Source: Podarcis liolepis | Lineage: Eukaryota | Assembly (NCBI GenBank): GCA_965112155.1 | Contig: OZ218114.1 | Reading direction: 5' to 3' (one strand) | Length of the DNA: 64,000 bases | Shown here: positions 477-60,439 of the stretch, in pieces | How the letters are laid out: each line of letters begins with the position of its first letter | How positions within the stretch are numbered: the first letter of the stretch is position 1 | The notes under the pieces: model-generated | The model's input: the letters and a program-made list of their open reading frames with translations, nothing else | Told to the model about the DNA's origin: nothing | Database searches by the model: none | Position numbers and translations under genes: made by a program

Positions 477-656
<180 letters not shown>

Positions 657-3600
657 TGATGTCTGGAGTTTCATGTCCTGGCGGGCATTTTCTCCTTTGC
701 CTGTCAGTTGGCTGTGTATTTGAAAAGTATTTCACCAATCAATATGCTGCAATACTTTCTAATGGGAAGAAATTGTAAGTGAGGTTTACTGGCTAGCATT
801 TCAGGGAACGATCTGGGATTAACTGTTTATTTGTTTAGAGCACTTGTTTTCAGCTGCTGGAACAGGACACCCTAGTGGGTTGCAGCCTGATCCAAGATGA
901 GTTGCAACGAGAGCACTATGACCATACAAATAAATGGGTAAAAAAAAATAAGAAATGGGGCCCCAATGGCATGTTTGGGTTAAAAGTGGATCCTTGGTGT
1001 GAAAAGGTTGAAGATAACCTGATTCAGAGAATTTATAGCCCACTCATTATTACAAAATAACCCCAGGGTGGGTTACAATACAAAAAATAAATACACAATA
1101 AAGCCAGTTACATAAAACTAGCAGATTCATCATTGCATAAAGCTGTTTGACAAGTCAGAAAGGGGAGACCGCCCAGCTCCACAGCCAGTTCAGCCCAAGG
1201 CCTGGGTGAATAAATGGGTTCTTAAATGGTTGTAAAAACACATCAGGTTTGGTGGCAGTAGAATCTGTGATGGGAATACAATCCACAGGTGGGTTGCAGG
1301 TACTGAGTATGTTCTCACGTGTTGCCAAATATCACACACTTGGCAAATGTCTAGGCCATTGTGTACATGAGAGCAGGCAGGCAGCCCATCACATCTCAAA
1401 ATTCTGGGTCTGGTATGGGAGGTGCTGCGTTAGATACAACAGCTAGATACTGCTGTGTCCAAGGTGCTACAGAGCTGAGTGACTTTATCAGCCAAGTGCC
1501 ATGCAAACAGTGCACAGCATGTTACCCGGTGGGCCAAGGCCCACTTTGGGTATGATTAGCTTCTGAACCACCTGGAATACACCCCCCCCCCGGATGGCTC
1601 ATTGAAGATGCAATGCGGGTGCCAAAGTGCTGCTCCTTCATCATCTACAACTCCTTGGTAAAGGGCACTATGGACCCTGCAGCATTGGAGAGGACCCTTA
1701 GGAACAATCATGTCTTCATCTTGCCATCCCATGGTGAGACCAGGACTCAACCAGATCACTAACTCTACTGCCACTGGAGTGTTTGCTCACATTCCGTTGT
1801 TTCAAGACCAGGCTGTTCCTGAAACCTATGTTGGATATGGATGGTCCGCTTGCTTGGTCATGTTGCCTCTTATTTGTTTTATTTATTTTTAAAAGCATTT
1901 ATATACAACAAAATATTTCAAAAACTTCTAAGTGGTGTACTGTCTTTAAAAAAAACCCCCAAATGATATGTGATTAAAATAAAAACACAACCTAAAACAA
2001 ATGGGACAGCAATATAAAAAAACACACCAGAAAAGCATATAAGAGGAATAAAGCATATTCAAACACATAAAACATGGTCCAATTTTATGGGTCAGGAAAA
2101 GCCTGGGCAAATATAAAGCAGACTGGAAACTTTGTCGGAAAGGATGCACACCAAATGTATGCTTCAACCATCAGCCATGTGCTTCCTCTGAGCTTGCTCT
2201 TCAAGCTCAAAAATTGATATGATTGGGAAATGTATTGCGAGTAATGAGGACTGATTCTATTACATGGTTGTCTATAATTATAAAGCAAGATTTTTCCTCT
2301 CTCTGTGTGTGTTTGGCTTTTATTCCTCGCATTCTGATTTCCAGGCTCTCCTTTTTCTTTTCTTTTTCTCTTTTCATTATCATACCAATAGTTTATAAAA
2401 GGCTTTTTAGGCTACTCTGTTTATTCTTGTAAATTCTGCTTACATCTATAGCTAAAAGTAGTAGTGTAGCAATGTAAAAGAGTTGGTTCTTAGTATTCAG
2501 TAATCTGCACTCCATGGTTTCAAAGCTTTGATTTGAGTGTTGGGATAATTTTTTAACCAGGGAACCAGTGGTTAGGGGCATTTGCTGGATGATGCTGAAG
2601 GGCATTCCTAAAATATGGGGCAGCACCTAATACTGGTTAGATTAGTCAGCTTCCTGCCAGTCTTTTGCCTCCTCACCAGCAGGAGGAGGCAAACTCGCTT
2701 TCTAGACTGACTGGTCGAGCAAGGACAGCTCCTCTATCCCATAATAAGGCTCAGGAAACAGCTGCAGCTAGAATATGCCCTACGTGAAAACTGATTGCAG
2801 TCTGGACAAACTGGGTTAACAGAGAAAACGCATCCAGTGTACACAATCATAAACCAAAGAATTATATGTAATGAGCCTAAGCCCAGACTTTGGAGTGAAT
2901 CTGGGCCTACACAGATTGAACTGTACACATGTGCACCTTTAGGAATGTTAGAACATGGAAGTCCGTCTCATGCCAAATCAGACTCATCTGGCCCAGTATT
3001 GTCTATTCTGACTGGCAGCAGCTCTCCAGGGTTTCAGAAAGTAACCCTACCATATTTGGGGTATTATACCTAAAATTTATCACATGTAAAACATGTGGTT
3101 TGCCACTGAGCTATGGCTGCACTCGTGCACGGACACCCTGTAGGTGTCAGATCAAGGTAGAAGCTCTTGTCTGAACGGGCCTAGATGGTTTAGTAACTTA
3201 ACTTTGAGCCCTTATTTACACTGATGAAAATGTACAGGACTTTTACCTTCCATATTCTTATTGAAATAGGTGGCAGGAGTTTTTAATGGATTGAGCCTGT
3301 AATTCTTTGTTTGGTGTTAAAGGTCATTTTGTGCACACGGGACTTCCTTTTGTAGAGCAAGCCCTAGGAGTTTTGCTTTGTGTGACATTATTATTATTAC
3401 TATTGGACAAGAAAGCTTAACATCTAACATGATGATGCTGGGTAGTAATATATAGTCTACCTCTATTCCTTTAAAAACCTAACTTCTTTCCTATATGTAT
3501 TGCATCGTGCAGGGCCAGTTCTTTTCTGAAATTTATGGTATCCTTCAACAAAGATGCCGGTGTTCCCATAATTCCCATAATTTTTGCAGTGTGTCTGTTT

Positions 3601-5287
3601 CTGAGGGACTTTGCTTTTCTGAATTTCCACATATAACATGGTTGTGGTACTTTGATCATATACAGAGCCAGTATTTGCTGTTCATCTAAAACCATGTTTC
3701 TAGCTAAATGGCTGGAGTGTTGGTAGAGAATGGTCCAGAAGTCCTGATCCCTGGGACTTGTGTGCAGGGCTCTGGATCTCTTACCCCATTCCCTCCCCCC
3801 CCCCCGATGTTTTTAAAGAATATTTAAATTAAAAAACAAAAGCTGCAGAGTGCTCAGCTGCCTGTAAGCGAAGAACAGTGGCAAGGGAGACCCCAGCCAC
3901 CCACTGTCTCAAATTAGCCCAAAGGAATGTATGCATATAAATTAGCATGTGCATTTTTATCTTTGCAGATTTGTGCCCTCGGTGGTTTAAAGTACTTACC
4001 AATACCCTGGATGAGTGACTTACTAGTTTAAAGAGTAGCCGCACCCCCACTTTTGAAAACACTTGCTGTTTAGACAGCAGCTCTTGGCTTGTCATTATTT
4101 CCAGAAAATAAATCTTCGTTTGGATTCATTTATAACATTCACTAACTCTAGCAGTTCTGGCTGCCCTTGCAGCCCAAACTCTGTTACTCCAGATCTGTAA
4201 GAATGCTAACTTGTGGATCACGTAATAAAAAAACATGTTTTGTAGATAATATACTGTTATAAATTGTGGTGTATGTATGGGAATACAGGTTTTCATAATG
4301 TCTTTGCCGGGGGGGGGTGCCTCTGGGGAAATAAACAAATAATGCGGGTAGCTTGGGGTTTTTTTAACTGGGAAAATGGTGCAAGGATAAAAATACTGAA
4401 CCCCTGTCTTCATGCGCCATGATCCCAGCCCAGAACACCCCTCCCTGTTAACAAGAGAGAGGACGGACTATTTTGCAAACATTTAGTCTCTAGGGCGAGT
4501 CTCATTTTACAATAAAAATCAGCATATTAAAGGAAGCTTGGGTTGATTTAGAGGCGAGCCTGGTGCAGCCAGTGTTTGAAAGCATGCTCTCTATTGCGCT
4601 TCCTAAGAAGTCCTGGGGGAGCTTGGGCCTTAGGGCCATCACTCTTCTGTCACCGGGCTGGCTGCGTCAGGAGGCGGGGTACAGCTTCCTTGCGAGAAAC
4701 CCCTAGGTGATGTGGGTTTATTAATTTTTCTGGGGAATAATTAATGAATTAATTATACCGGAAGGCGTTTGAATATTCAGAAGCCACAGTGTAATTATTC
4801 TTATTTGGTCTGAGATGCAATTTCATTTGTGGATGGATATGCAAGGACTTGCTATGACAATTTGTTCTTGCTTCCTTTTGGCGTGCAAGTTGCTTCATTG
4901 TTCTTCTCGTTCTCTCCTCCTAATGAATCCTGCAAGGTTGGGTGAAGCCAAGGAATCGTAACTGCTCTGAAGGCAGCTGGGTGTCTTCGGGTCCAAGGCT
5001 AGTATTCTGCCCTCCGCTCTGCACTGGCCTTGAGAAAAAGGTGCTGCTTTGATCCACGCCAGTTGAGGCACGGCTCTGCTCTGGCATAAACGAGAGAGAG
5101 GGAGGGTGGCGAGTGTGTTCTTGAGGCCTCTCTGTGCTGTGAACATTGCTCAGAACGTCCTGGGGGCAAAATAAAGGGACACTTAAGAACTCCCTTTTGC
5201 TTTGTGGCACTGCTGATGGTGTGCAGTGGCCTTTAAAACCAAACAGTGCATTTTCAAAGGACTTGCCGGAGGACGCTCTCTTTTCTA

Positions 5288-5290
<3 letters not shown>

Positions 5291-5336
<46 letters not shown>
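5291..5336. repeat. (CT)n microsatellite followed by a poly-C run
   Basis: Direct observation. Confidence 0.95.
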
Positions 5337-5338
<2 letters not shown>

Positions 5339-6295
5339 CCCCCCCCCCCAGAGACCGAACCGTTGTTCTCTGTGGGCGTTTTCTCGAAAGAAAACCCATC
5401 ACCGAGTGCTTTTGCGTGGAGACCTGGTTTTGGAAGAGCAGATACAGCCGCTCCGAAAAGGAGTTGAAGCGTCAGGAATGAATTATTTTTAGAGCCAAAC
5501 CTTCGGAAGCGCATTACCAGCTGTATAAAAAATTAATTGCCTCTGTGGTTCTGCTCGTGTTTCATAACTGGCTGTCTGGCTGTTGTCAGTGTTACCGGCC
5601 TGTAATGAAGTCCTTTTGTTTTAGTATTCTGGTTCTCTTCCCCCATCCCACCCCCCCACCCCATTGTCGCAATCCCCTTCCACCACCAGGAGACGAATGA
5701 GTTACTGCGTGGCAAATGGGAATTTAACAGGATAAATAAAGATAGCCAGTCTCGTTGCATTGAAGTTGTGCCCATAGAGGGCATGCTTCAGTTCTGTGCA
5801 GATATTACACTGCTGATTATGGGGTTGCTAGCAGCTGCAAAGCTCTGGTTCAGAGACCTATGCTTTAGTGCAGATGAACATTTTACACGTCATGTCTTTT
5901 TTTTAAAAAAAGAGAGAAAACAGATTAGCTATGCTTTAATGCAAAATCTCTTCAAAGAGATCCTTAGATGTGCCTGCTGATCCTGTTGAACAAATTCTGC
6001 TCCTGCGTTTCCACTGTGTTGCTCTCTCCTTCAGCAAAAGAGGAGGCAGTCCCTTTGGTGGAGTCCAGGGAGCCCTTTCTAACTCCTGATGTGGTTTGGA
6101 GTTCACGTTTTCCAGAATGCCGTTCCACCACTGCAAAACTTCCTCAATGTAGAGAAACCCTGCCTTTGCCAAAGGTGGCACAGTGGCCTTCCAGGAGAGG
6201 ACCATGGATGCTATGTTCTGTGTGCATACAGGCATTGTTCCAAAATCAGATGTACGCTCTGTGCAGAGAAGCTCCCATGTTGTTCAGAGCTCTGA

Positions 6296-6479
6296 AAAAT
6301 AAAAAAAATTCCTTCTAGTAGCACCTTAAAGACCAACTAAGTTAGTTCTTGGTATGAGCTTTCGTGTGCATGCACACTTCTTCAGAAACACTTTCAGTGC
6401 ATGCACACGAAAGCTCATACCAAGAACTAACTTAGTTGGTCTTTAAGGTGCTACTGGAAGGAATTTTTTTATTTTGACT
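6296..6479. mobile_element. Penelope-like element (PLE)-derived inverted-repeat insertion
   Basis: ~80-bp near-perfect arms at 6296-6375 and 6397-6475. The motif gtagcaccttaaagaccaac...gagctttcgtg resembles reptile Penelope termini. Flanked by a 12-bp direct repeat agagctctgaaa (6286-6297, 6480-6491). Confidence 0.8.
6352..6389 (-). ncRNA. Minimal type-I hammerhead ribozyme motif (PLE-type)
   Basis: Minus strand reads GUUU-CUGAAGA-A-GUGUG(CAUG)CACAC-GAAA-GC-UC/AUAC. The core, helix II and palindromic AGCU helix III are intact; helix I has one U.U mismatch. Confidence 0.7.
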
Positions 6480-8699
6480 AGAGCTCTGAAAGGCAGACTA
6501 GAGCAGTCTTGTAGTTAGCCGCACACCTACTCAGATTTCAGAGGACTCTGGGTGAAATGCTCATTCACTTGCCCTTCCTCAAATCTGCACCACCTCCAAG
6601 AGGGAGAGGGCACAGTAAGCAGGAGTTTTCACCCACTCAGAGAGGACAGGTGAACAGGCAGCCGGGTGGAGGCCAGCTGTGGGTCTTGACTTTATTTTGT
6701 GTGTGCCTGTATACTTGCTTCCCGTAAAAAAATAAAGTGGCTTCATTGCAGTTTGCATTCAGACAAAAGAACAGGAATCTTGAAAAGAAAGGAAAAACCA
6801 AGAATACTGTTAAAAACCACCCATTAAAATAATAAAAATCAGTGTAAGACACAGAAGGAGTAGAGACTTTAAAAAGTAAAAATGAAATTAAACAAGATCT
6901 AAAAACTTTGGGGAGAGCAAGTAATTTTTCACTCTGCAGCAGAAGAACACCCCTATCAAGCCCACCCACCCCTTCACAGGGGGAGAGGTCCACGGCTGGG
7001 CAGGTGTTTGAGGATGCTCTGCTGAGAGCTAAGTGACAGTTCTGCTGGCCTATGGAGGGGAAATGCCTCCAGTTCTCCACCATTGCCAAAAGAGACCCAC
7101 ATTTTTCTCTGCTCTCTCTCTCCTCCCTCCCCAGCTTTATATCTTTATGTGCAGCTCACCGGCCTTCTTCATATTCAGCTTCTCTGACCCTTGCCACACC
7201 TCTCTAAAAACTGACCTCCACCAACCTCTTTGTCCGTCAGTTTTGTTCTGCCTTCTCGGTCCAACCCTGCTAGGATGACACAGAGCCTCTCTGGCTCATG
7301 ACACCCACCCCTTGCGTTCCTCTACCTTTCTCTGCTGGTGATTATAGGGCATTCTGTTGTGTTTGCACCCTCACCCTTCCTTTTTAAGCACGGTTGGCAA
7401 TCTGCAAAACCTGCACTGGAGGTCTGGATCCAGATCCGGTCTGTCTTTTGCTCCCAGTCCTGTTCAGCCGTGATGGGTTTTACTTTCTTTTTGGAAATGG
7501 CATGGGTGGTCCCCACACACTCCCCATCTAGAGGGATTTTCATCATTTTTGCTCATCAGCATGCTAATTGCTGTATGACTAATTATGCCCTGAATTCCAG
7601 TTGATTTTTTTAATGAGACAGCTGGGTTAATTATGTAATCATATGATTACATTAGCCTAGAGTGCCCCAGCGCAAAGTAATCCACGTGGGCACATGATGT
7701 CATTGTGGAAGCAAGGCTCACAAGGGGTGCATTGAGCCCTTCACCTAATGGTGAAGGGGGGGAGGAGAAGGACAGGGTCAACCTCAATGTTCCCTTTGTA
7801 AACACTTACGTTGGAGAATAAAGGGTGTGTCCCATGGGCGGAGAGCATTTTTCTAAAATGCATCTTGCCTTTCTCTATTAGTCCACTACCCTCTCTCTTT
7901 CTCGGGAACAAGGCTTGAGTTCAGAATAAAACAGGATTTTCCAGATTAATGTTAGTGGCATATGCTATTCTTAAAGGACAAAGAAAAATACATGCATGTT
8001 TATTTAAAAAAATAAAAAAATAAGCCTGTGCTTCCTCATATATTGTTTCGGCAACTTACAAGAATAATAAAATACAATAAAAAAGTAATACACAAAAAGA
8101 ACAAACAATAAAAGCCATAAGTAAAGGGATTCAAAAACAGCTGCAGAAAGAATGAGTTGCAGTCCATTGAGAAGTTCGGTTCTGTTAATGTGGGTCTGGC
8201 GTGAGATGGTGACTTTCTGTCCTACTGCCTCTGTTAGTTAGCTCAGCATTGGCAAGTTGTTTGTTTTAATAATTGTTATTAATTCACCCCAAAAAAAGGT
8301 TATATAGGATTCTGCAAAATACATTGTTATCAAATGGGATCTGATGGCAATATACATAGACCATATACAATTATAGATCACTGCCAAACAAATACAGACA
8401 TAAATTAAAACCAAAATAAATAAACCACAGGTATGTGAATGTGTGGAAGGTAGTGGCTAGAACCATTTATAGCGTAAACCTAATGGTTCAACAAGAAAAA
8501 GTTACAAAACATGCACCCTGTGGTTTTCTATTGCCTGTCACTGCTTGTTGTGAAGGGTCACTTGTTTGCATACAGTCCGGCCCTCATTGAATTGTCGCAG
8601 ACTGTCCATGTTGCATTCCCTTCCCTTCTGACTTCATAACTTTTAATTCCATCCCGAACCCCATGTCTGCATATATCTAGAACTGTTGGTTATGCTTCA

Positions 8700-8885
8700 G
8701 GCAGAGGGCCTTCTCGGTAGTGGCACCCTCCCTGTGAATGCCCTCCCATCAGATGTCAAGGAAATAAACAACTATCTGACCTTTAGAAGACACCTGAAGG
8801 CAGACCTGTTTAGGGAAGTTTTTAATGTTTGATGTTTTCTTGTATTTTCAATATTTTGTTGGAAGCTGCCCAGAGTGGGTGGGAT

Positions 8886-8918
<33 letters not shown>
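8700..8918 (+). mobile_element. L2-type LINE 3' end with (ATC)n tail
   Basis: agggccttctcggtagtggcaccctccctgtgaatgccctccc (RAFSVVAP.LWN.LP-like L2 terminus), then 3' UTR and (ATC)n. Confidence 0.65.
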
Positions 8919-9578
8919 GACTGCAAAAGCTTATGCCATAACTAGTTTCTTAGTCATTCATTAAGGTTCTACAGGATTTTTTGCTGCTTTTGCAGAATAA
9001 CATGGCTACCCCTCTGGAAACAAGAAGAACATCATAGAACATAATTTTCAAAATTGGAGTGAAAACAGCAGCAGAGCAGCTCCCAGAATAATGGGCAGCC
9101 AGCCTCCTTGTACTGGCAGGTTGCCCAGTTAATGCTGCATCCCTGTTACCCACTCACGTAGGGCTTAGGAATGGAATTCTGCTTTCTGGGCAGTGTTGAT
9201 TCTTTGGGGACTCTTCCCAGTGAATTGGAGAAGACCAGGTCATCCTCACTCACAGTAGTGGGGCAACTACATATGCAGCACCCAGAAAGAGAACGAATTT
9301 GTGCTTGCAGATTTTTATGTACAGATTTATATTTACAAATATGCAAATAATGCGAATCGAAATAAAATTGATATCGCTGTCTTGGGAAAGACTGGGACCA
9401 GGTGGCCTGAGTGCCTACTCTGTCTGCTGCCCAGGTGATAAGTGTTAATGGGCAACCTTGCCAGTTCCCCTTCTGATGGTTCCTTAGGTTTAAACTGGAC
9501 TTGGACCAGGCAGCACATCAACTACAGATATGGTGGCTTGTTTCCAGGGCTCACCTGTCTACTTTGCTACTGAGTTTA

Positions 9579-9960
9579 GGAACAGGTGGTGCTGTGGTCT
9601 AAACCACTGAGCCTCTTGGGCTTGCCGATCAGAAGGTCGGCGGTTCAAATCCCCGCAACGGAGTGAGCTCCCGTTTCTTTGTCCCTGCTCCTGCCAACCT
9701 AGCAGTTCGAAAGCACGCCAGTGCAAGTAGATCAATAGGTACCGCTGTGGCAGGAAGGTAAACGGCGTTTCTATGCGCTCTGGTTTCCGTCATGTTGTTC
9801 CATTGCACCAGAAGCGGTCTAGTCATGCTGGCCACATGACCCAGAAAGCTGTCTGTGGGCAAACGCTGGCTCCCGTGGCCTGAAAGCAAGATGAGCACTG
9901 CAACCTCATAGTTGCCTTTGACAGGACTTAACGGTCCAGGGGTCCTTTACCTTTACCTTT
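9579..9960 (+). mobile_element. Sauria SINE, full length
   Basis: tRNA-like head with B-box ggttcaaatccc, Sauria core (gccaacctagcagttcgaaagcac) and (ACCTTT)n tail. Confidence 0.9.
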
Positions 9961-11610
9961 TACTGCTCTAAAACTTTATTTGATGAACCCGAGCATTCAG
10001 GCACAGAAATTCTCACCGCTAACCAGGGTCTTTCTGTTTACTGTTAAAGGCAAAATCTTTCAACGTGTGTCATGATTGTCCTAGTGATGCAGCTGCAGAT
10101 TTATACTCAACCATGTTCTATGGAACATAATAATTTCTTAGTAACATTTCCAGTGTTCACGGTCTTTCTCAGCAATTATACAGTTGCCAACAGCCTTGTG
10201 AGGTAGACTTATTGACATTCCTCCCATGTTAGAGGAGAAAGAAAAAGAGTACATTCACATCTCTGAATAGAGATTCGAACCCAGGTATCAACACAGGGAG
10301 CAATTGTTTCTCTTCTCAGTCCCCCAAATAATTTTACATGATTACACCCTCACATCTGGTGGGGATATTCTGCTCCCCAGCAACTTGGAATACTTTTGTT
10401 CCCAGTTGAGAGATATTAAGTGCAAATTTCTGGCACTGAGTGGAATATGGGGGGGGGGGGTGTTTAAGTTATCTTCACAGCTATTTTCAAACGTTGTGTC
10501 TCATTCTTCTTGTAAGAGAGTTAATAACCAAAGTGTAGTTTTTAGTAGGTTTTCATTTTTATATGCTCTAGTGAAATCATTTTTGTTTTTTAGAATCATT
10601 TTTCCTTAACAGATACCACTGCAAGGTTTGTACAATAATACTTAAAATGGCCCTCCTTGGGAATTTTTCTGAGTTCCCAAATACATACCTTTTGAAACTT
10701 GTTACATTTTTAGGTTTGAAGCGTAGCAGTCGCTGGGCTGGCATGTAGCAGAATCATGGCCGAGTTTTTATAGCAGTGATTATTAAATTAGTTTTCTTTA
10801 ATAGAAGCCATACAAATTAAAGTGGAGAAGTCTGTTCTGTGTGGCCTCTTTAGCATATCCCAAAACAATATTCAAAAGCTGCTGACATTTTAATCATTCA
10901 TCTTGGCTTAAGCAAATTTTGGAGTTTAATGCAAGGAGATAGGCTTAACATTATGCTCATACTTTATTCTGCAACTGTTTTGCTTCTTTGACATTAACCT
11001 TTAATAAAGCTAAATTAAATATACATATCCTAATGAATAATTATGAGTGCCAACATTTTCATTTACGATATAATGTTTTCCAGGGATTTGGGAATTTATT
11101 GACTAAAGGTTTAGTCATTATTCATTTTATAATGTAGATGTTGGTGGGGTGGGTGAGTAATAGTTAATACAAAATGCCTGGCAGATTTTAGTCCAGGAAA
11201 GCCTTGTTAATTTGCAAGTCCTGGGACCCTAAAAATTGTCATGGGCCCTGTGACTTAAGCCAGGTGGGACTGGTAGGATCTGCTAGAGGAGGACCCTGAG
11301 GTAGAGGGTTGGCAAAGTTCAGGGGGTGATGGAGAAGAGTGTCTCATGGCACGGCTGCCAGGTGCCTCTTTAAGGGATGGGGAGTTAACAGGCTTCACCT
11401 CTTGGGAAGAAAGTTCGCAGTTGAGCAGAAAGTGGCTGATGTCAGTGGAGCTGGTTGAGTTGGAGGCTGAGGGAAAGTGTGAAGGTTGGATTCTGATCCC
11501 ATTGCCAAGGATGTGCTCCCGCAAAATAATAATAAGAAAAATAAGAAAAATAATAATAATAGAAGAGGAAGAAGAAATATAAGAGATGGGCAAAATTTTG
11601 AGAGAAAGTA

Positions 11611-11720
11611 CAGTCATACCTTGGTTTTCGAACAGAATGTGTTCCGGAAGTCCGTTCGACTTCTGAAATGTTCAGAAACCAAGGCGCAGCTTCCGATTGG
11701 CTGCAGAAGTGTCCTGCAAT
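11611..11720 (+). mobile_element. Truncated Tc1/mariner-type MITE end
   Basis: TA|CAGTCATACCTTGGTTTTCGAAC start; no matching second TIR found. Confidence 0.5.
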
Positions 11721-13819
11721 ATACTCCCAAAGATGCTATTTCTATTTCAGACAGTACCTGTAGTTAAAGATGTGTGTACACGTAGAAATACAGCTTGGGT
11801 GGGTCCAACATGAAGTCCTTGTCAGAGTGCTCTACTCCCACCCAGCACATGCAGACAGGGGCACTTGCTTGGAAATATGAAAGAGATACTTATTCCGGCA
11901 GCCTCAGCAGCAGACCCAGTGCTCAGAAGTTAGAGAGCAGGGCAAGAGGTTTGTAACAGCGTAGAAGTGATGAAGATGCCCCAACAGGTTTTCCCACCCT
12001 TCCCACCAAGCTTCCAAAGATGGGGCAGGATGTGCTTGTTCACAAGACTCATTTGTCTTGTGGGAATAGTGTGAACGCTAGTGCACACTCTGAGCCTTCT
12101 GTTCAGCCTCCCCTCTTAGCCGATCAAAGCCCTCTCCAGCCTCCACTGAGGCTTCCAGCTCCATCGGAAGGTCAGGGGAGAGCTGGCATCCTTGCTGCCT
12201 CTTCCAAAGTGACTGAATTTGCAGTACAGATAGGGTACTCCCCCCTCCCTCCAACCCAGGACCCCCTAGTTCACCCCCCACCACCAGAGCCTGCCAGCTG
12301 AATCTTGACAGCACTGTGGAGGTCATGGCAAAGAGTCAGCATTGACCCTTCTGGTTACATCTCCCCTTAGGGGTGCTCCTCTACTCAGACGGCTGGAGTG
12401 AAAGCCTTGACTTGGCCTTGTCGGTTCAATGCCAGGTCAAAGCTCTTCTCCTGCTTGGAGCGCACAGACTCCTCCCATCTGCCTCTTCGGGCACCAGTGT
12501 TTCCAGTTCGCCACCCATGGAAGTTGGACCTGCTACACTCCAGGCTCTAGCTCCAGCTCACGAGGCCCGGGCAAAGCCTCTGGCTGATGAGAGACAGCAG
12601 GAGCACTGGTTGTTTCAAGTGCTTCCACCCTTCAGCCCAGCCCAGCCCCAGCAGAGGGCAGGAAATAGTGGCAGCAATTTGTGCACTACTTAATTGGACA
12701 GTCCTGTTGGGGCTTTACCTCCCCGAGCTGCCACTGAACTTAAATTTTATAATTGCTCTCAAATCCTCCCTGTGTTAAATAACTTTTTTTAAAAAGACCT
12801 AATGTGAGATGAATATTTTAACAGTGCTAATAATGAAGAAGAGAAAACAACCACCCTGGCCTAAAAACCACAAATGAGAAAGTGATGTAGTTATAAAGTA
12901 TGCATGTGCTGTGAGGGCAAGTGATAAGCAGCCTCAGTTTTTCCCCTTGCATTATGGAGGTGGCAAGGCAGGAAGCCCTCTCTGAGCAGAGTTAACACAA
13001 CGCAGCACACCCTGCCTCTCTTTCCTCAACATAACCCAGTGCTGTTCTTTTATAAACTCTGGTGCTGGACTGACACGTTGCAAAGTGCCCAGGCTTGCAC
13101 TTAATGCGTTAAGAGAGGTACAATGGGCTTATTATGCGTTTCCAGCAACTGAGGGTGGTCTGTAAAATTAATGATTGTGGCGGCTGCAAATTAAGCGAGC
13201 TCCCTAATATGTACTGTTGTTGATCCTCCGAGATTGGTGTGTTTAACATTCCTCAGCGGGAGACTAAATCTTTGTAGCCATTTCACAAGTGATGCTGGCG
13301 CCCACCGCAGAAATGTATGCAGCGCTATTTTATGAGACCCTTTTTGGATTCCAGGATTCTTCTGCTCTGGCTGGCAAAGCTCCACAACCAGCCCAGCAGT
13401 CTCTGTGAAACGTGCTTGTCCAGCCATACGTGGCAGGTGTATTGTGGTGCCTTTCTAGGGATGCTTTGAACATTATTAGGCTGCCTGGATGTGCTAGCTA
13501 ACTAGGGCTGGGGCGTCTCTCCCACTTGATCAGACCCTTTTGCCTGAGTGTTCTGGCCAAATGCTTGGTGGGGGGATCCTGGTGTGGTTTTTCAGTGTTT
13601 GTTTTGAATGTTTGAGCAACCTAATTCTTCCCTATCGTCGCACACCATGCCAGTTCTCCTGCTTCCTCAAGAAAGGAAAGATCTAGATCTGAGAAATTCT
13701 AAGCTTCCCCAAAGCTTAGAAATCTAGAACCCCCCAAAGAACTGGGAAATCATTTGGGAAATCTAGGACTTCCTGAAGAAATGTGACCAAGATAACTTGA
13801 CTTGTTGGAAAGGATTTGA

Positions 13820-14173
<354 letters not shown>

Positions 14174-14992: not shown

Positions 14993-15114
14993 AATCATAG
15001 AAGGGACCATGAGGGTGCTAGAGTCCAACCCCCTGCAATGCAGGAATCTTTTGCCCAACATGGGACTCGAACCCATGACCCGGAGATTAAGAGTCTCATG
15101 CTCTACTGACTGAG
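14993..15114 (-). mobile_element. tRNA-Lys(CTT)-derived SINE with CR1-like tail (Squam3-like)
   Basis: 15053-15114 is the reverse complement of most of tRNA-Lys-CTT with CpG decay and no 5' acceptor strand. It is fused to a CR1 3' end (gggggttggactctagcaccctcatggtcccttctatgatt). Confidence 0.75.
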
Positions 15115-16728
15115 GTTACTATGGCAGTACCTAATTCTGGGCATTATGGCTTTGAGAGCTATCAGTTGTGAAGGTGGCTGCCATTTTTTATTATTTTTAC
15201 CTGCATCCTAATATTGAAGAGTGGATAATATGTTTTGTAGCTTTTCTATATTGCTGTTTTGCTCACAGGAAAGACTCACTGAAACTTTCTGCAGTGTATG
15301 TGTTTGTATGTCTGTATAAAACAGGAAATAAGCAGCATTTAGCTGAAAAGATATGCATTGGTCAAACAGTTTTTGTGCACTAATTGCTGCCTGATTGAAC
15401 TTCCGCTGGTGAGGAAAATGAGCGATGGGGAGGATTATATCCCTTCTGCTGTGGAGTTTCACATAAAGGGGGGCTAGTACCAAAGAGACCCTGCCATTTA
15501 TTCTGGCAGATGTCTCCATGAAAATAGAGAACGTAGAGAAAGCCTTCATTAGTTGTTCTTAATACTTAGAATGGTAAAGAATTCTTTCTTTCTTTTTTAA
15601 GGAGAAGGTGCCCCCTCAGGTTGCTATTGATGTTTATTGTGAGACATAGCACATGCACACAATTGCCCAGCCCAGCCCACAGTTTCCCTGGTCAAAAGAA
15701 TAAGAATAATAACAACAAAAGTACCCTGAAATATAATGCAGGTACAAGTGTTGTTGGTTTACAATACCTATGTTAGTCCCCAGCTTTGGAGTCAAGCACA
15801 CTAGCAGGAAAGAGGAAGCAACTGAGTTTACCAGCTCACTGCTTGCAGAAGAAATACACTTGGCATTGTATCCAGCTAAGTTGTATGCAGAGTACAACTC
15901 CCTGAAATTAATAGACCCAATTTATTCACTCCCATTGTTTTCTACTCTGAGTTGGATCAGCCTTAGATGCAATCCTCTGGATATAGACTACATGGTCACC
16001 CCTTGTATCTCCTCCAAAACGAAGAAGCATAAGTGTTGGCACACTGAATCTTGGCACAATCCAGGAGGGGCCAGGAGAAACTTTGATCCCCCTGGTGGTA
16101 GTCCATAGCATCCTAGGGAATCCCACATCACGTTTTGCTGCTACTTCTTGTGCTCCTTGCTGCCACTGCACAGTTCACCCATATCTGCAGCCTGGCTTCC
16201 CCCTGTTCCCTGCGCCTCTCACCCACTTCAGCCCTCTTGTATCAGCAGATACATCTTACCCTTGGGCAGGGCAACATTCAGGGCTGCTAAGAAAAACTTG
16301 CCAGCTTCTAATTCTGTATATTTTAAGCACTCTAGGGAGGAGGCTCTGTTTGAGTGGCCGTGAGCTGGTCAGGGACTCTCGTCCAATAATTAAGCACATT
16401 CTTTGCATGGGGAAGGTTTCATGTTTTTGTCCCCAGAATCTCCAGCTAGGGTTGTGGGGGGGATTCCTCTGAAATCCTAGAGGTCCCTGTGGACAGGCCA
16501 TGGTGTGACTGTGTTTCAGACAATTTCCTGATCCTCATCTCTGATCACCCTAGAGCTTAATGTAGGGCGATGAGGTGTCTTGCCGGCGATTCCGCCCTGC
16601 AGTCAGGTTAGAGAAACCTTCACTCCGCTTCCCGGCAGCGTCCATTGATCCTGCTTAACCTTAAACATTTAAAGTTCAATTTACCATTTAGGGAGTAAAA
16701 GGTATCCAAAGGGACTTGTGGCCATTGA

Positions 16729-32666: not shown

Positions 32667-32884
32667 CAGTGGTACCTCGGGTTACAGACGCTTCAGGTTA
32701 CAGACTCCGCTAACCCAGAAATAGTACCTCAGGTTAAGAACTTTGTTTCAGGATGAGAACAGAAATTCCGCAGCAGCGGCAGCGGGAGGCCCCATTAGCT
32801 AAAGTGGTACCTCAGGTTAAGAACAGTTTCAGGTTAAGAACGGACCTCCAGAACGAATTAAGTTCTTAACCCGAGGTACCACTG
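32667..32884 (+). mobile_element. Tc1/mariner (pogo/Tigger-like) MITE, intact, 218 bp
   Basis: Perfect 18-bp TIR CAGTGGTACCTCGGGTTA / TAACCCGAGGTACCACTG; TA TSDs. Confidence 0.92.
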
Positions 32885-35800
32885 TATTCTTTTCAGGTAT
32901 CTTTAAAAACATGAGTGACCTGGTTTTCCCTTTGCAACGGTGCCAAGAGGCAACATGTTTACATGTTGGATAGTGTCCATCCATTTTGTTGTCTTAATAT
33001 TCCTGGGAAGAAAGAACTTGACTTAGTGTGGGACTTTATCATTACGATTTCTTGAACAGTAGCTTCTTAAATACACTTGAACATAATCCTAATGCACCGC
33101 TCCCGTAAAGTCTCTCAAACACCAAAAATTGTAGTTCTCCCATTCCTTCATTCTAAAGAAACGCCACCCCTGCTAAACACACACAAAAACACACTCACTC
33201 TCTCTTTTCCCCTCTCTGCACACACACTCTTCACAGAGTGAACAAGAGAATACCCCACCCCCTTTGTTAAGGTCCTAAATCTATGGTTTACTTTGTAACG
33301 TAGCTGGCTCTTGAAGGACACAGTTGCACAGAATTTTTGGAGCAGCCTAATAGCTTCCTGTCTGTTCCTTAATTATTTAAGGTTTATTGAAGGTTTTCCA
33401 CAAAAGTCCAGCAGATAAATCTGTACCAGTTGGACATAAAAAGTTTCTCTCTCCAGTGTAACTCTTCCACCAGCCCCCATTAATAGCAAAGGAGAGAAAG
33501 TCAAATTGAAACAAGAGAAATGAACTCTCCTTCACCTAAAAGATCTGCTATGGATATCTACTTTGCTTAACAATTTTGAGAAGCTATGCAGTTGGGCATC
33601 AGAGATGCTCATGTGAACCATAATTTGTTCACCAGAACTCATAATAATCTTAAAAAATGTTTGGGTGTAAATTATTGTTAATATTAACAACACACACACA
33701 CACCCCAAGATTTGCTCAAGCAGGAAAAATATTTTAACATTATCAACACAACAAAACAGATTGTTTCATCATGTTTGCTACTTCGGCTACTTTAGCAAAA
33801 TTAGCATAGCTGCTGTTATAAAACACTGGAATTAACTTTAAAAAGCGTAGTATTATTACTTTTAGCAAGGTTAGGTAAAATGCAAAGCATTCATAGAACT
33901 CGCTGTAGTCTCTGGCTTTTATCCCGGAATGGCAGGGTCAACCTCCATGTATTTTTTTATTTATTGGATGTAAACCAGAAACAAAGCAAAGTAACAGTAG
34001 CTATTAAAATGTGAGACTTTTTAGAAGGAGTTTTGCAAAATGGCTCATTCTCTAAGCATCACCAACCTTGTGAATCATTGAATATTTAAACTGGATCAAA
34101 TAATTGATTGTCTTATGTGCCAACCCTTCATCTAAGAGCTTGCTTGTGCCCTCTGCAATTTTCTCCCTGTCTCCTTTTGTATTCTTAAGACTCCTCTACG
34201 GTATCAGAAACTGCCTCCGAACCTCCCCTCTGTTGCAAAATCAGCGTACTGCGCAGCTGGCAAGGCTGGCCTGCCCATGAGGTGGCAGGCTCCAGACAGC
34301 GGGCAGGTGTGGCACATCTGCTTCCTGTACTTGTAAGCCACTTCCTCCTCTGCTGTGAGCCCCACCCACCCTGTTCTTGGGCAGCAATGGGCAAGCAGTG
34401 ACAGGCAGGCACGTGGGGGGGGGGCATTTTCTGCAAAATCTCCTGGGCGGCCTTACCTGCTGGTCTGAGAAAGGAACATCTTGAGCCTCCTTGGGAGACC
34501 GGAACTAGCTATTGCACCCCAATCTTCTCTATCCCTTCCACTATTTTCTTTGCCATTGTTAAGTCAGGGATGCAATGCCGTTCTTTTATTTAAGTGAATT
34601 GTACAGTTCCCCAATATCAATAGCAGGTAGGGTTTTCTTATTATTTGCAAGAGGTTGTAATAAAAAATTTAGCAGCGCATTTTAACGAGCCCTTGTGGCT
34701 TCATATTAACAGTTACTCAGTGCAATAAAAAGAAGAAAACAGCAACGGGGAAAATGTTACTTTTTTCTCCTTGCCAAAAAACGTTACCCTGTCCAGCTAA
34801 TAAAACAGAAACGTTTGCCTCCGCAGTAAATTTCAAATATATATTCTCTGTGGGTTTTTGGTCCTCCCGCATGTGGAAAAGGAAGGTACAACAAGCCTTT
34901 CACGCCTAGGAAGTGCTACAAGCAGAACTGGCAGGTGACCAACATGTTGCATATGTTAAGTGAACTCTTTGTATGTGGACTGGCAGTAAGTTCTGGACAG
35001 AGAAGAGTGTGTCTAATAGAACTCCCTGGCTCAAGGTGTGTGATGGCTGGTAGTTTAGATTATGTTAGAATAGGATTAAGAATATCTCTGCAGGTCGGAC
35101 CAAAATTCTATCTAGTCCAGCATCCTCTTTCCACCAGCACCTAAGCTTATGCCTTCAAGATGCCCACAAGCTGAAGGCAATAGCCCACTCCTGTTATTGT
35201 TCCCTAGAAAATGGTACCCCGACTCATGTTGTTGTTGATGATGATGATGATGTTGGCCTCTAAACATGGAGAGACCATTTCCCCATCATGACTAATAGCT
35301 ATTGTTAGACCTATATTCTTCCCCATGTATTTATCACTAAATTGTCTTGCGTAGCATCTCAGCCCACGACCATCACCACATCACAATGAATCCCTCATTA
35401 CACACATTCGTAACTGGCAGTCGATGGTTACAAGACAAGATCCCTAAATGGAACATCCGTGTTCAGAGCCAGCGTACCTCTGAATACTTGGCTGCTGGGA
35501 GCAAATAGTAATGGATGGCAATTACCTTTATTCACTTTTGTGGAATTGGGAATTCTGGGCCAGTTCTGTCTGGGTAGTCTTTTTTAAAGTTCTTCTGGAA
35601 GTGCGTGTTAGCAGAAGACTTCAGTAGTCCTTTTGCTGTGTTCAGTACTGGAAATGAAACAAGGTCCAGAGATGGTTCAGATGGTTGCTTTTCTGTAGGC
35701 TCAGCGGTTCAGCACCGTTTGAAAAGCTGTTACCATGCACCAATAAATTAGAGGTTTGTTGTTGGTTTAAATGCTTTAATTAAAATATTTATCACCTGCC

Positions 35801-51967: not shown

Positions 51968-52103
51968 CAGGCATCCCCAACCTGCGGCCCTCCAAATGTT
52001 TTGGCCTACAATTCCCATGATCCCTAGCTAACAGGACCAGTGGTCAGGGATGATGGGAATTGTAGTCCAAAACATCTGGAGGGCCGAAGGTTGGGGATGC
52101 CTG
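51968..52103. mobile_element. Palindromic hAT-type MITE (136 bp)
   Basis: TIR CAGGCATCCCCAACCT / AGGTTGGGGATGCCTG; flanked by ttaaag on both sides; degenerate relatives at ~22400-22540, 26303-26440, 36940-37040, 37470-37575. Confidence 0.85.
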
Positions 52104-52934: not shown

Positions 52935-53297
<363 letters not shown>

Positions 53298-54511
53298 TAA
53301 CATGATTTTGTGTTGCATGTGGACCAAACCATGATGGAGCTTAATTATAATAAATACACTCACAATCAGATCTTGATAGCAGCGTTTGGAATGGATCTGC
53401 AAGTCCTCATTATAGGGACAAACCTGGTTAGCATCGTATCAGTGTACATGAAACATGGTATCATGTTAACACGGAAGAAAGGAATTCCTAACCTAAATTT
53501 AGGTGGGGGGAAAGAGAGTGAGAGAGAGAAATGTGCATTCCTGAGGTTGACTCCTGATTTGTGAACCATGGTTTTCAGGTAGCCAGTGTTTCATCTGCAT
53601 TGGGGCAGTAAGTATAAAACAAACCATGGGTTAGCATCAAGAGCACTTGCTTCTCCCCCGCTTCCCTCTAATTCTACTGCTGTACTAACTTGTCTCCTTC
53701 AAATAGAACTCCTACCTCACAACAGAGCTAAACCTTATTATCATTTATGTTGATCTTATTGGTATTGGTATCTTGTCCTTTCTCCAAGGTTGGCAGCCAT
53801 GGGAATTCCATTTTATCCCCACAAGGCTGGGAGTGAGTGACTGGGCCAAGGTTGCCCAATGAATTTCATGTCTGAGCAGGGATTTAAACCCTGATTTAAT
53901 ACCACTCTGGCTTTTATAGCCACTAAAGCAATTGATTACTTTGGGGTTACTGGACACCCAGTTGTCAATCATAAGCAATTCTGGTGTGAAAGGTATGTGT
54001 GTGTGTGTGTAAACTGATCCCTCTAGGAAACATGTGTGATCCAAGCCATGTTCCCTTCTGCTCTGGTCTTGAACAGATGACAAGGGTGCTGCATGCCGTC
54101 GTCAAATGCGTAGATCTGCAGAGTGTGTCACAAAGCTGGAAAAAAATGAGAGTTTGGTAGAGGACAAGGGATTCCTGTACCAGCTATGGAGGGATTCAGA
54201 GGTTGTGAAGCCTTGTCTCCTGCTGCAAGCTGAGTCATCGATAGGAAATGCAGTGCTCAGGTGCTGCCAAAAATATTGGGCATGGGACGCTGCGAGCCGC
54301 TTTAGTAAGACACAGAAACGGCACCGTGCAGCTCTGAGCCATACCCACTTCCTTGCTTGAAACCCCATTTGGGTTTCAAGCGTTCTCCAAGTCAAGAACT
54401 AGCAAAAGGTTAATATGGAAGATTGGTGTGGGGGTGAGCTTGGGCCCAGGAAGTTCTGAATTCAAATCACCCCTCAGCTGCAAACTCCCTCATGTTGCCT
54501 TAAGCAAGTTG

Positions 54512-58775: not shown

Positions 58776-59401
58776 TGACCCTGAACCTCAGGATACCCAG
58801 GAAACTATTGGCAAGAGACTTAAGAGTGTGCAAAAAACTTTAACCTGCCTGTTGTGTGCCACTAAAGGGTTAAGAAAAAACGTTGCAGCGTCAGGGACTT
58901 TTTAGTTTATAGCAAAGGTGAGTAAGGGATGACTTGATGGAAGCGTCTAAAACTGAATGGCATGCAAAAAGTGGATAGAGAAAGGTTTTTCTCCCTCTCT
59001 CATAATGAAGTGGAATGTTGGAAGTTTCAGGAAACTTCAGCAGTTAAACTGGTTTGTGTGCGGGTTTAGTTATGCACAGAAAGTTAATTGAAATATAATA
59101 ATGAAATATATTTTTCATATTCCCACATTAATCTTCAGTGGGTTTTATTCTGCATTCTTCTCAGTTTGGTCACAGAGAAAATGTGTGTGAGAGAGAAAGG
59201 GCGATTACTACATCTCATGGAAAGCAGAATGCAGAGATGAGTGTTTGAAGAAGCCTAGAAACACAGTGGTTTCATTCAAACATCACACTACGACTTAGCA
59301 CAAATTTGCAGGCTCCTGGAGATGAGTTGGTGTCTGCTTTGCTCTGCCCCAGTCATTCTGTTGCACTGATCTAAAGCCATGGCTTGCCATAATGTCATCC
59401 A

Positions 59402-59502
59402 AACCTGGGCTCATGGTTTAGACTCTCTAGACTTCCCATGAGCTGTAACCAAGGTTTAGGGCTTGTGGCTTGTCTAGAAGAGCTAAACCATGAGCCCAAG
59501 TT
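59402..59502. repeat. Imperfect inverted repeat, likely the core of a degenerate MITE
   Basis: aacctgggctcatggtttag...ctaaaccatgagcccaagtt arms. Confidence 0.6.
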
Positions 59503-60439
59503 CAGATAAGATGCTTAAGCCAAACACAGCTTGGCTCAGTGCAACAAAGCAGTAGAACAATTAGGGAGGAGGGAAGCAAACTCCTTTCTGCGAGTCCACA
59601 CTCGTGGCAAAGCCGTAATTTTGCATGGTGTGACATGCAAACTAGGCCAATGAAGTGAAGCGGGACAGAAAATATCCAAGGCATGGGTGCAGTGGTTAGG
59701 AGAGATGCAGAGGAAAAAGCAAACCTCAACTCCATTGCAGGGGCAGGTTGCTGAGTGCTCTGTCTTCTTGGTCACAAATTATCACAGCTTTGCTGTCTTC
59801 ATGGTTCCCTCAAGTGTGTGCCGCACTATATGAGCGGCCCAGTAGTTCAGAATGAGAACCATGTCCTATTCTTTTGATATTGCGTGTGATGTTGGTGACA
59901 TCACAATCGGTGTCCAGGCGCAAGTCTGATGTCTGTACGACAATAGCAATAGCAAATTGTTTGAAAGTCAAGGAATGCGTTGCTCTTTATTCTCTAATAT
60001 AGAGAACTGGAATGATTAAAACATTGATAAGTAAGATGTTCATATAATCATAGACAACAGAGTGTTGAAAAGTCAAGGACTATTGACCATTCACCAGTAA
60101 TTCTTGGTATTTTGTAGGGCATGAAAAAGCTAAGGGAAATCTCATGCATACTGGTAGACCTCAGGGTTCCAATCAAGTAATTTTGGGAACGAGCCACCTC
60201 TCTCCTTTATTTCCATCAGTTTCTAGTAAAGGACTTGCGCAGAGGTTGGCTTGCAAATTTCAGAAACAACCCTTCTGAGACAAACATTGGAGATTAACCA
60301 GTAAATGACTTTTTCTCTGGGCCTGCCTCTCTGGTTTGCACCACGGGGTGGGGCAGCAAGACTTTGATTCCAATGTGTTGGCAAAATCAGTTACTTGGGC
60401 CACAACATCTCACCATGCCTTCTTTGTTTATCCCCATAG

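What the first reader, a model, noticed from the sequence alone, without database searches (positions are those of the whole stretch)
6352..6389. Near-intact minimal hammerhead ribozyme antisense to CUX1 intron 4
Seen: the minus strand reads 5'-GUUU CUGAAGA A GUGUG CAUG CACAC GAAA GC UC^AUAC-3'. This has a complete CUGANGA/GAAA core, a 5-bp helix II with tetraloop, an NUH site (CUC) and a loopless palindromic helix III (AGCU). Helix I has 3 of 4 pairs. Known: Penelope-like retroelements carry such minimal hammerheads, which are thought to cleave as dimers through the palindromic helix III. Inferred: this is a recently inserted, possibly still catalytic RNA motif inside a developmental transcription-factor gene. 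Predicted cleavage is between plus-strand positions 6356 and 6355.
Basis: partly seen in the sequence, partly recalled or inferred. Interest (0 to 1): 0.7.

Follow-up and report, generated by a model that had tools for sequence, protein, structure and literature searches.

The report
Dead Penelope stub with trapped ribozyme
The self-cutting RNA motif is real, but it is one damaged copy of a jumping-gene end present thousands of times in this genome, inserted back-to-back so that it is predicted to be locked in a hairpin and inactive; it is ordinary.

Summary
The motif is there as written (6352-6389, minus; 0 of 200 shuffles). It is the minimal hammerhead of a young Penelope-like retrotransposon (RT, zinc-finger linker, GIY-YIG; Neptune type). 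Its 34-nt core occurs 11,672 times in the genome. 9,879 copies have a complete helix I; this one carries a rare helix I mismatch (14 copies).

The motif is one arm of a 182-bp head-to-head insertion with a 12-bp target duplication. A 79-bp inverted arm traps it; refolding costs about 40 kcal/mol. The other arm lacks the catalytic core. The site is empty in two related data sets and appears filled in a third, so the insertion is recent and unfixed. Nothing points to a role in CUX1.

One family-level point is useful. 41 of 100 sampled arms start 31-38 nt before the cut, about 30 nt after a TATA-like box, and only 1 starts at the cut. This suggests the element's transcript begins just before the ribozyme and that uncut RNA is the template. 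The scan has reported the same fold-back stubs in this genome and others.

The parts
6286..6297 (+). Left target-site duplication (12 bp)
   Evidence: Identical to 6480-6491; present once in the empty allele of run X1; 12 bp is the family's modal length
6296..6392 (-). Long arm: end piece of the Penelope-like terminal repeat, family positions -37 to +59 relative to the cut; 2 substitutions and 1 inserted T against a natural copy; the first 2 nt overlap the duplication
   Evidence: Alignment to L068
6352..6389 (-). Minimal type I hammerhead motif; predicted cut between 6356 and 6355
6387..6387 (-). Private helix I substitution giving a U.U mismatch
   Evidence: 14 genome copies against 9,879 with the paired letter; 349 of 351 family RNA reads carry the paired letter
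6376..6396 (.). 21-nt loop between the arms; holds the CUGAAGA core and the unique head-to-head junction at about 6392-6396
   Evidence: the junction occurs once in the genome
6397..6480 (+). Short inverted arm, family positions -20 to +64; lacks helix I 5' strand and the CUGAAGA core; no 30-nt tail
   Evidence: Identical to L068 over 84 nt
6480..6491 (+). Right target-site duplication (12 bp)
622..13994 (+). Host intron of a CUX-family gene (CUX1 intron 4 by recalled numbering)
   Evidence: Flanking exons 543-621 and 13995-14132

Best explanation
This is a 182-bp head-to-head stub of a very abundant Neptune-type Penelope-like retrotransposon, flanked by a 12-bp target duplication in an intron, and its hammerhead is predicted to be inactive. 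Shown: family membership, arm anatomy, the duplication, empty alleles in related data sets, the helix I mismatch and the core-less second arm. Inferred mechanism: the element's protein nicked both DNA strands 12 bp apart and primed a cDNA on each, at two nearby sites downstream of the ribozyme. One cDNA ran to the likely 5' end of the element's RNA (-37), the other stopped in the palindromic helix II (or carries a 16-nt deletion there), and the two were joined head to head. In the parent element the ribozyme lies in the terminal repeat about 65 nt upstream of the ORF start and would cut only as a dimer or with protein help. In this copy any transcript through the locus, on either strand, would fold into a 79-bp hairpin instead.
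For: 34-nt core: 11,672 exact copies, reversed control 0. Longer copies run upstream into an ORF with RVT_1 and GIY-YIG hits and a CX4CX2C motif before the endonuclease. L193 is a partial tandem: 918-bp repeats 99.7% alike around an ORF that starts just after the ribozyme. 43 of 72 sampled insertion events are head-to-head; 40 of 57 examined have 9-14-bp duplications, mode 12. 1,279 short fold-backs pivot inside the ribozyme. In 25 of 28 pairs only one arm has the tail (p=3e-5), as expected from two priming sites. Folding: -149 kcal/mol, z=-21. The hammerhead-ready fold costs 39.8 kcal/mol with both arms; the dimer model scores -4.9 against -12.7 for an intact copy. Empty site: one X1 contig joins 6285 to 6480; X5 contigs fit the same join. 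In print: inverted 5'-truncated copies, one-sided tail and duplications (PMC8557442, PMC3846280, passages); both strands cleaved and extended, two RT start sites, ribozyme active only with protein (PMC11167929, main text).
Against: Inactivity is computed, not assayed, and nearest-neighbour energies omit tertiary and protein effects; even intact copies score poorly in them (ready-fold probability 5e-4 to 0.15). No RNA run from an animal shown to carry this insertion was available. Neither arm here has the full tail, unlike most pairs. The plus arm can be read two ways (start at -20 with 4 filler nt, or start at -41 with a 16-nt deletion that also occurs in 2 other copies). Snap-back self-priming followed by trimming could give the same shape. 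The 100-arm sample is the first 4.5 Mb of contig C1, not a random draw.
Confidence: 0.9

Rival explanations
1. The copy still cuts: an antisense RNA that begins inside the 21-nt loop or is unwound by protein pairs in trans with another family copy through the AGCU palindrome and is cleaved at 6356/6355.
For: Core, helix II, GAAA and the CUC site are intact. Without the second arm helix II forms at 0.90-0.97. Family fragments are transcribed on both strands in a relative, so partners exist. The related Anolis ribozyme cuts with protein help (PMC11167929).
Against: The inverted arm is transcribed first on the minus strand and pairs with helix II, GAAA, the cut site and helix I. The helix I mismatch costs 7.8 kcal/mol in the dimer model, and an RNA holding the single arm alone still needs 12.9 kcal/mol to reach the fold, against 4.7 for an intact copy. 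The upstream promoter-like region is absent. A single Schistosoma motif showed no cleavage and dimers only low activity (PMC4209133).
Confidence: 0.05
2. The unit is a fold-back miniature (MITE-like) element that moves as a whole through its inverted ends.
For: Terminal inverted arms and a target duplication; 1,279 similar short fold-backs.
Against: This junction is unique in the genome. The 50 fold-backs listed show many different junctions. Arm ends follow the retrotransposon's two priming sites. Single-arm copies carry the same duplications.
Confidence: 0.02
3. The insertion matters to the host as a 79-bp double-stranded hairpin in the pre-mRNA (editing or small-RNA substrate, or a splicing effect), not as a ribozyme.
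For: The + strand folds at -155 kcal/mol. About 60% of sampled events are such hairpins.
Against: It lies 5.7 kb and 7.5 kb from the flanking exons and is absent in close relatives. There are no locus-specific reads. A function, as opposed to incidental processing, has no support.
Confidence: 0.05

Closest known systems
Minimal hammerheads (min-HHR) in pseudo-LTRs of metazoan Penelope-like elements (Cervera and De la Pena 2014, PMC4209133; parts 1-2 of 4 read)
   Same: [quoted passage not shown]
   Different: Helix II is 5 bp plus a 4-nt loop, and the whole hairpin is a 14-nt palindrome. The family is unusually uniform (9,879 identical motifs). This copy has a broken helix I and is trapped by its twin.
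Neptune-clade endonuclease-positive Penelope-like elements and their inverted insertions (Craig et al. 2021, PMC8557442; Arkhipova et al. 2013, PMC3846280; passages read)
   Same: RT then CX2-5CXXC linker then GIY-YIG; partial tandem forming pseudo-LTRs; inverted 5'-truncated copy; 30-40-bp tail at one end; target duplications.
   Different: This insertion holds no coding sequence, only two 84-97-nt ends, and neither has the full tail. Clade placement rests on the linker motif, not on a tree.
Poseidon element PAc of Anolis carolinensis (Frangieh et al. 2024, PMC11167929; parts 1-2 of 4 read)
   Same: Hammerhead near the ORF start; two RT start sites that define the tail; uncut RNA as main template; no RNA-seq reads ending at the cut.
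   Different: PAc is Poseidon clade and its ORF begins inside the ribozyme. Here the ORF begins about 65 nt after the cut.
Animal non-LTR retrozymes (bioRxiv 10.64898/2026.07.22.740005; abstract and part 1 of 2 of Results read)
   Same: Short non-coding hammerhead-bearing sequence derived from Penelope terminal repeats, often intronic.
   Different: Retrozymes are head-to-tail tandem units. This is a head-to-head end fragment of an autonomous family.

Membership tests
Minimal type I hammerhead of Penelope-like elements (sequence motif) | CUGANGA and GAAA boxes with an NUH site | tested here: met
Minimal type I hammerhead of Penelope-like elements (sequence motif) | Extra nucleotide before G10.1, G10.1-C11.1 pair, palindromic 15.2-16.2 | tested here: met
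   A6378, G6377-C6364, AGCU; features as listed in PMC4209133
Minimal type I hammerhead of Penelope-like elements (sequence motif) | Helix I of 4-5 bp | tested here: not met
   3 of 4 pairs in this copy; met in the family (9,879 copies)
Minimal type I hammerhead of Penelope-like elements (sequence motif) | Compensatory changes among related motifs | tested here: inconclusive
   Among 30 older CUGAUGA-type motifs read out, helix I appears as GUAU/AUAC, GCAU/AUGC and UUGC/GCAA and helix II as three stem types, but only 9 of 30 keep all 4 helix I pairs and most are decayed; no formal covariation test
Active hammerhead ribozyme | Can adopt the hammerhead fold in its transcript context | tested here: not met
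   Computed only: helix II probability about 1e-13, 39.8 kcal/mol penalty with both arms
Active hammerhead ribozyme | Self-cleavage at the predicted bond | not testable with these tools
   Needs an assay
Endonuclease-positive Penelope-like element | Single ORF with RT and C-terminal GIY-YIG | tested here: met
   In family copies, not in this stub: RVT_1 E=7e-12 and GIY-YIG E=3e-5 in a 909-aa open frame
Endonuclease-positive Penelope-like element | Partial-tandem pseudo-LTRs holding the ribozyme | tested here: met
   L193: 918-bp repeats, 99.7% alike; ribozyme in the 5' repeat, ORF start just downstream
Endonuclease-positive Penelope-like element | Inverted 5'-truncated copy, one-sided tail, target duplication | tested here: met
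   43 of 72 events inverted; 25 of 28 pairs with one-sided tail; 40 of 57 with 9-14-bp duplication. This copy: inverted arm and 12-bp duplication, no tail
Neptune clade | CX2-5CXXC motif between RT and endonuclease | tested here: met
   CX4CX2C before the GIY-YIG match in P0001; definition from PMC8557442
Neptune clade | RT phylogeny groups with Neptune rather than Nematis | not tested
   No reference RT set in hand
Non-LTR retrozyme | Head-to-tail tandem units | tested here: not met
   Head-to-head single insertion; the only family piece in the window
MITE / fold-back DNA element | Multiple copies of the same whole unit | tested here: not met
   Junction unique

The most novel reading that the evidence does not exclude
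The pile-up of genomic 5' ends 31-38 nt before the cut marks the element's own transcription start (TATA-like box at -67, initiator-like TCAGT at -37). The hammerhead would then be the first structure of the mRNA, and cutting would clip off a 37-nt capped leader ahead of the ORF. It would act as a protein-triggered off-switch or translation switch, not as a way to free the element from read-through RNA. The thousands of short stubs, this one included, would be full-length 'strong-stop' copies of the uncut 5' end.
Probability: 0.3. Interest if true: 0.5.

Novelty: new member of a known kind. Interest (0 to 1): 0.12.

Why it matters
For the host gene it almost certainly does not matter. The family is a useful natural record. 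With about 10,000 identical young ribozymes and over 1,200 short fold-backs, insertion ends can be read to test open questions on Penelope-like elements: where the transcript starts, whether ribozyme-cut RNA is ever copied (here about 1 in 100 arms), and whether inverted ends come from priming on both target strands. The locus itself is a presence/absence marker among close relatives.

Tried and rejected
Rfam: no hammerhead model matched; the microRNA-precursor hits below threshold only reflect the long hairpin. MITE reading rejected. Splice-acceptor reading of the family 5' boundary: the sequence there looks like a 3' splice site, and in D. virilis an intron ends at helix I (PMC4209133); but in the single-arm copies that start there the target duplication mostly abuts the boundary with no shared upstream exon (read by eye), and no GT..AG joint into it is among the 15 of 18 joints shown in four RNA runs; weakened, not excluded. 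RNA ends: no begin/end pile-up at the cut or at -37 in four runs of organism D; these are fragmented libraries read at 6-12% and organism D seems to lack this insertion, so this is uninformative for the locus. No RNA holder was listed for the locus. Loop II pseudoknot (lead from earlier notes): loop CAUG could pair 3 of 4 with the CAAG after helix I, and 8 of 178 copies with CUUG pair 4 of 4, but no compensatory pair of changes was seen; inconclusive. The protein Atlas gave no answer for the exon. Lunse et al. 2017 was not held and is known only through a review's passages (PMC6765202). No strand-bias test of intronic copies was possible without annotation. Supplements of PMC4209133 and PMC11167929 (Fig. 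S2 shows genomic coverage) were not read and may already show the 5' boundary.

Full report
Observation. A descriptor for minimal hammerheads finds only this site in the window and nothing in 200 dinucleotide shuffles. Rfam's hammerhead models do not pick it up. The site lies in a 13.4-kb intron between + strand exons at 543-621 and 13995-14132 of a CUX-family gene. The name CUX1 and the intron number rest on recall and on Pfam profile positions.

What surrounds it. The motif is inside one arm of a 79-bp inverted repeat (6297-6375 and 6397-6475, 96% complementary, 21-nt loop). The pair is flanked by identical 12-bp repeats at 6286-6297 and 6480-6491. Against a natural family copy, and counting from the cut, the minus arm covers -37 to +59 with two substitutions and one extra T; the plus arm covers -20 to +64 without differences and lacks the catalytic CUGAAGA box. 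The junction occurs once in the genome. No other piece of the element lies in the window.

The family. The 34-nt core occurs 11,672 times in the 1.57-Gb genome, with 0 for the reversed control. With the paired helix I there are 9,879 copies; with this copy's mismatch, 14 including itself. So 'three of four pairs' is decay of a four-pair helix, not a natural variant. Longer copies run upstream into a frame with RT, a CX4CX2C motif and GIY-YIG. Locus L193 is a partial tandem: two 918-bp repeats, 99.7% alike, around an ORF (one frameshift) that starts about 65 nt after the cut. This is the anatomy of an endonuclease-positive Penelope-like element; the linker motif points to the Neptune or Nematis clades (PMC8557442, passages), and no tree was built.

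How such stubs look in this family. I took the first 100 exact matches of a 32-nt anchor downstream of the cut (16,103 in the genome), all in the first 4.5 Mb of contig C1, and mapped both ends. They fall into 72 events, 43 head-to-head. Of 57 events examined for duplications (15 fold-backs with one inexact arm were skipped), 40 have 9-14 bp, most often 12. In 25 of 28 pairs one arm ends at about +49 to +66 and the other at +87 to +95. Short fold-backs that pivot within the ribozyme number 1,279. The window's copy is therefore typical, except that neither arm has the tail. Inverted truncated copies, the one-sided tail and duplications are published features (PMC8557442, PMC3846280, passages). 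The Anolis protein cuts and extends both strands and starts at two sites (PMC11167929, parts 1-2), which makes priming on both strands the simplest account. Self-priming, proposed in PMC3846280, is the rival.

Can this copy cut? Computed only. The minus strand through both arms folds at -149 kcal/mol (z=-21). Helix II probability falls to about 1e-13, and reaching the hammerhead-ready fold costs 39.8 kcal/mol. A single-arm RNA still needs 12.9 against 4.7 for an intact copy. The dimer model scores -4.9 against -12.7. Against over-reading: intact copies also fold poorly in this model, and for both the lowest-energy dimer is a duplex through the helix II palindrome. Published minimal hammerheads cut weakly as dimers (PMC4209133) or only with the element's protein (PMC11167929). 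The sense arm, which is what the host pre-mRNA contains, has no core.

Age. In run X1 one contig joins 6285 directly to 6480, the empty site. In X5 two contigs fit the same join (one ends at 6289, the next matches from its letter 27 at 6480). In X3 one contig at depth 6 runs 28 nt into the element, which looks like a filled left junction. The insertion is thus unfixed among close relatives. Oddly, X1's flanks are closer to the window (2 differences in 807 nt) than X3's (4 substitutions and a gap listed in about 390 nt), which suggests old polymorphism, introgression or precise excision; this is unresolved and rests on single contigs.

A family-level signal. 41 of 100 arms (34 of 72 events) begin at -38 to -31. 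Of 72 arms that reach this zone 41 stop in it, 0.07 per base, against 0.002-0.008 upstream and at most 0.012 downstream. Only 1 arm starts within -2 to +1 of the cut. RNA reads of a relative show the same boundary as loose ends at -36, -34 and -33 in four runs; these are transcribed genomic copies, not transcript starts. A TATA-like box lies at -67 and an initiator-like TCAGT at -39 to -35 (consensus recalled). The window's long arm begins at that A. I read this as the element's transcript start, with uncut RNA as template, in line with PMC11167929. It is inferred: D. virilis Penelope has a TATA-less internal promoter with an intron (PMC2377424, passages), the site also resembles a splice acceptor, and no RNA pile-up was seen at -37 or at the cut. 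Searches listed no paper whose title or abstract states this; I read few of them, no supplements, and Lunse et al. 2017 was not available.

Earlier notes of the scan report the same fold-back stubs in this genome and in others. I had reached my reading before seeing them; they are not independent support.

Verdict. A real motif, correctly recognised as Penelope-derived, but a damaged and trapped copy among thousands, with no sign of a role in the host gene. New member of a known kind; interest 0.12.

Noticed in passing
window 6286-6491; runs X1, X3, X5: The empty allele sits on flanks closer to the window (X1) than the apparently filled allele (X3). Old polymorphism, introgression or precise excision of the hairpin between its 12-bp repeats could explain it.
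   Followed up: partly
L068:1969-1976; Family 5' ends pile up 31-38 nt before the cut, about 30 nt after a TATA-like box, and almost never at the cut.
   Followed up: partly
window 15052-15125 (-): tRNA-like sequence with a CUU (Lys) anticodon, 33.6 bits, poorly paired acceptor stem; likely a SINE head or pseudogene.
   Followed up: no
window 51968-52103, 53183-53603, 59392-59512, 32800-32886: Other inverted-repeat elements (58-bp arms at 93%; 83 bp at 72%; 57 bp at 72%; 25 bp at 92%), unrelated to this family; probably miniature DNA transposons.
   Followed up: no
L194:1710-4439 and L195:1883-4453: Family copies with uninterrupted frames of 910 and 857 codons, consistent with a recently active family.
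   Followed up: partly
L197-L226: Older hammerhead-bearing families with a CUGAUGA core and other helix I and II sequences, mostly decayed; 46 matches genome-wide.
   Followed up: partly
L091, L092: Two other copies have lost the catalytic core through the same 16-nt deletion between short GTG repeats.
   Followed up: partly
L028:1500: A short copy inserted into an older copy of the element's own terminal repeat, with a 12-bp duplication.
   Followed up: no
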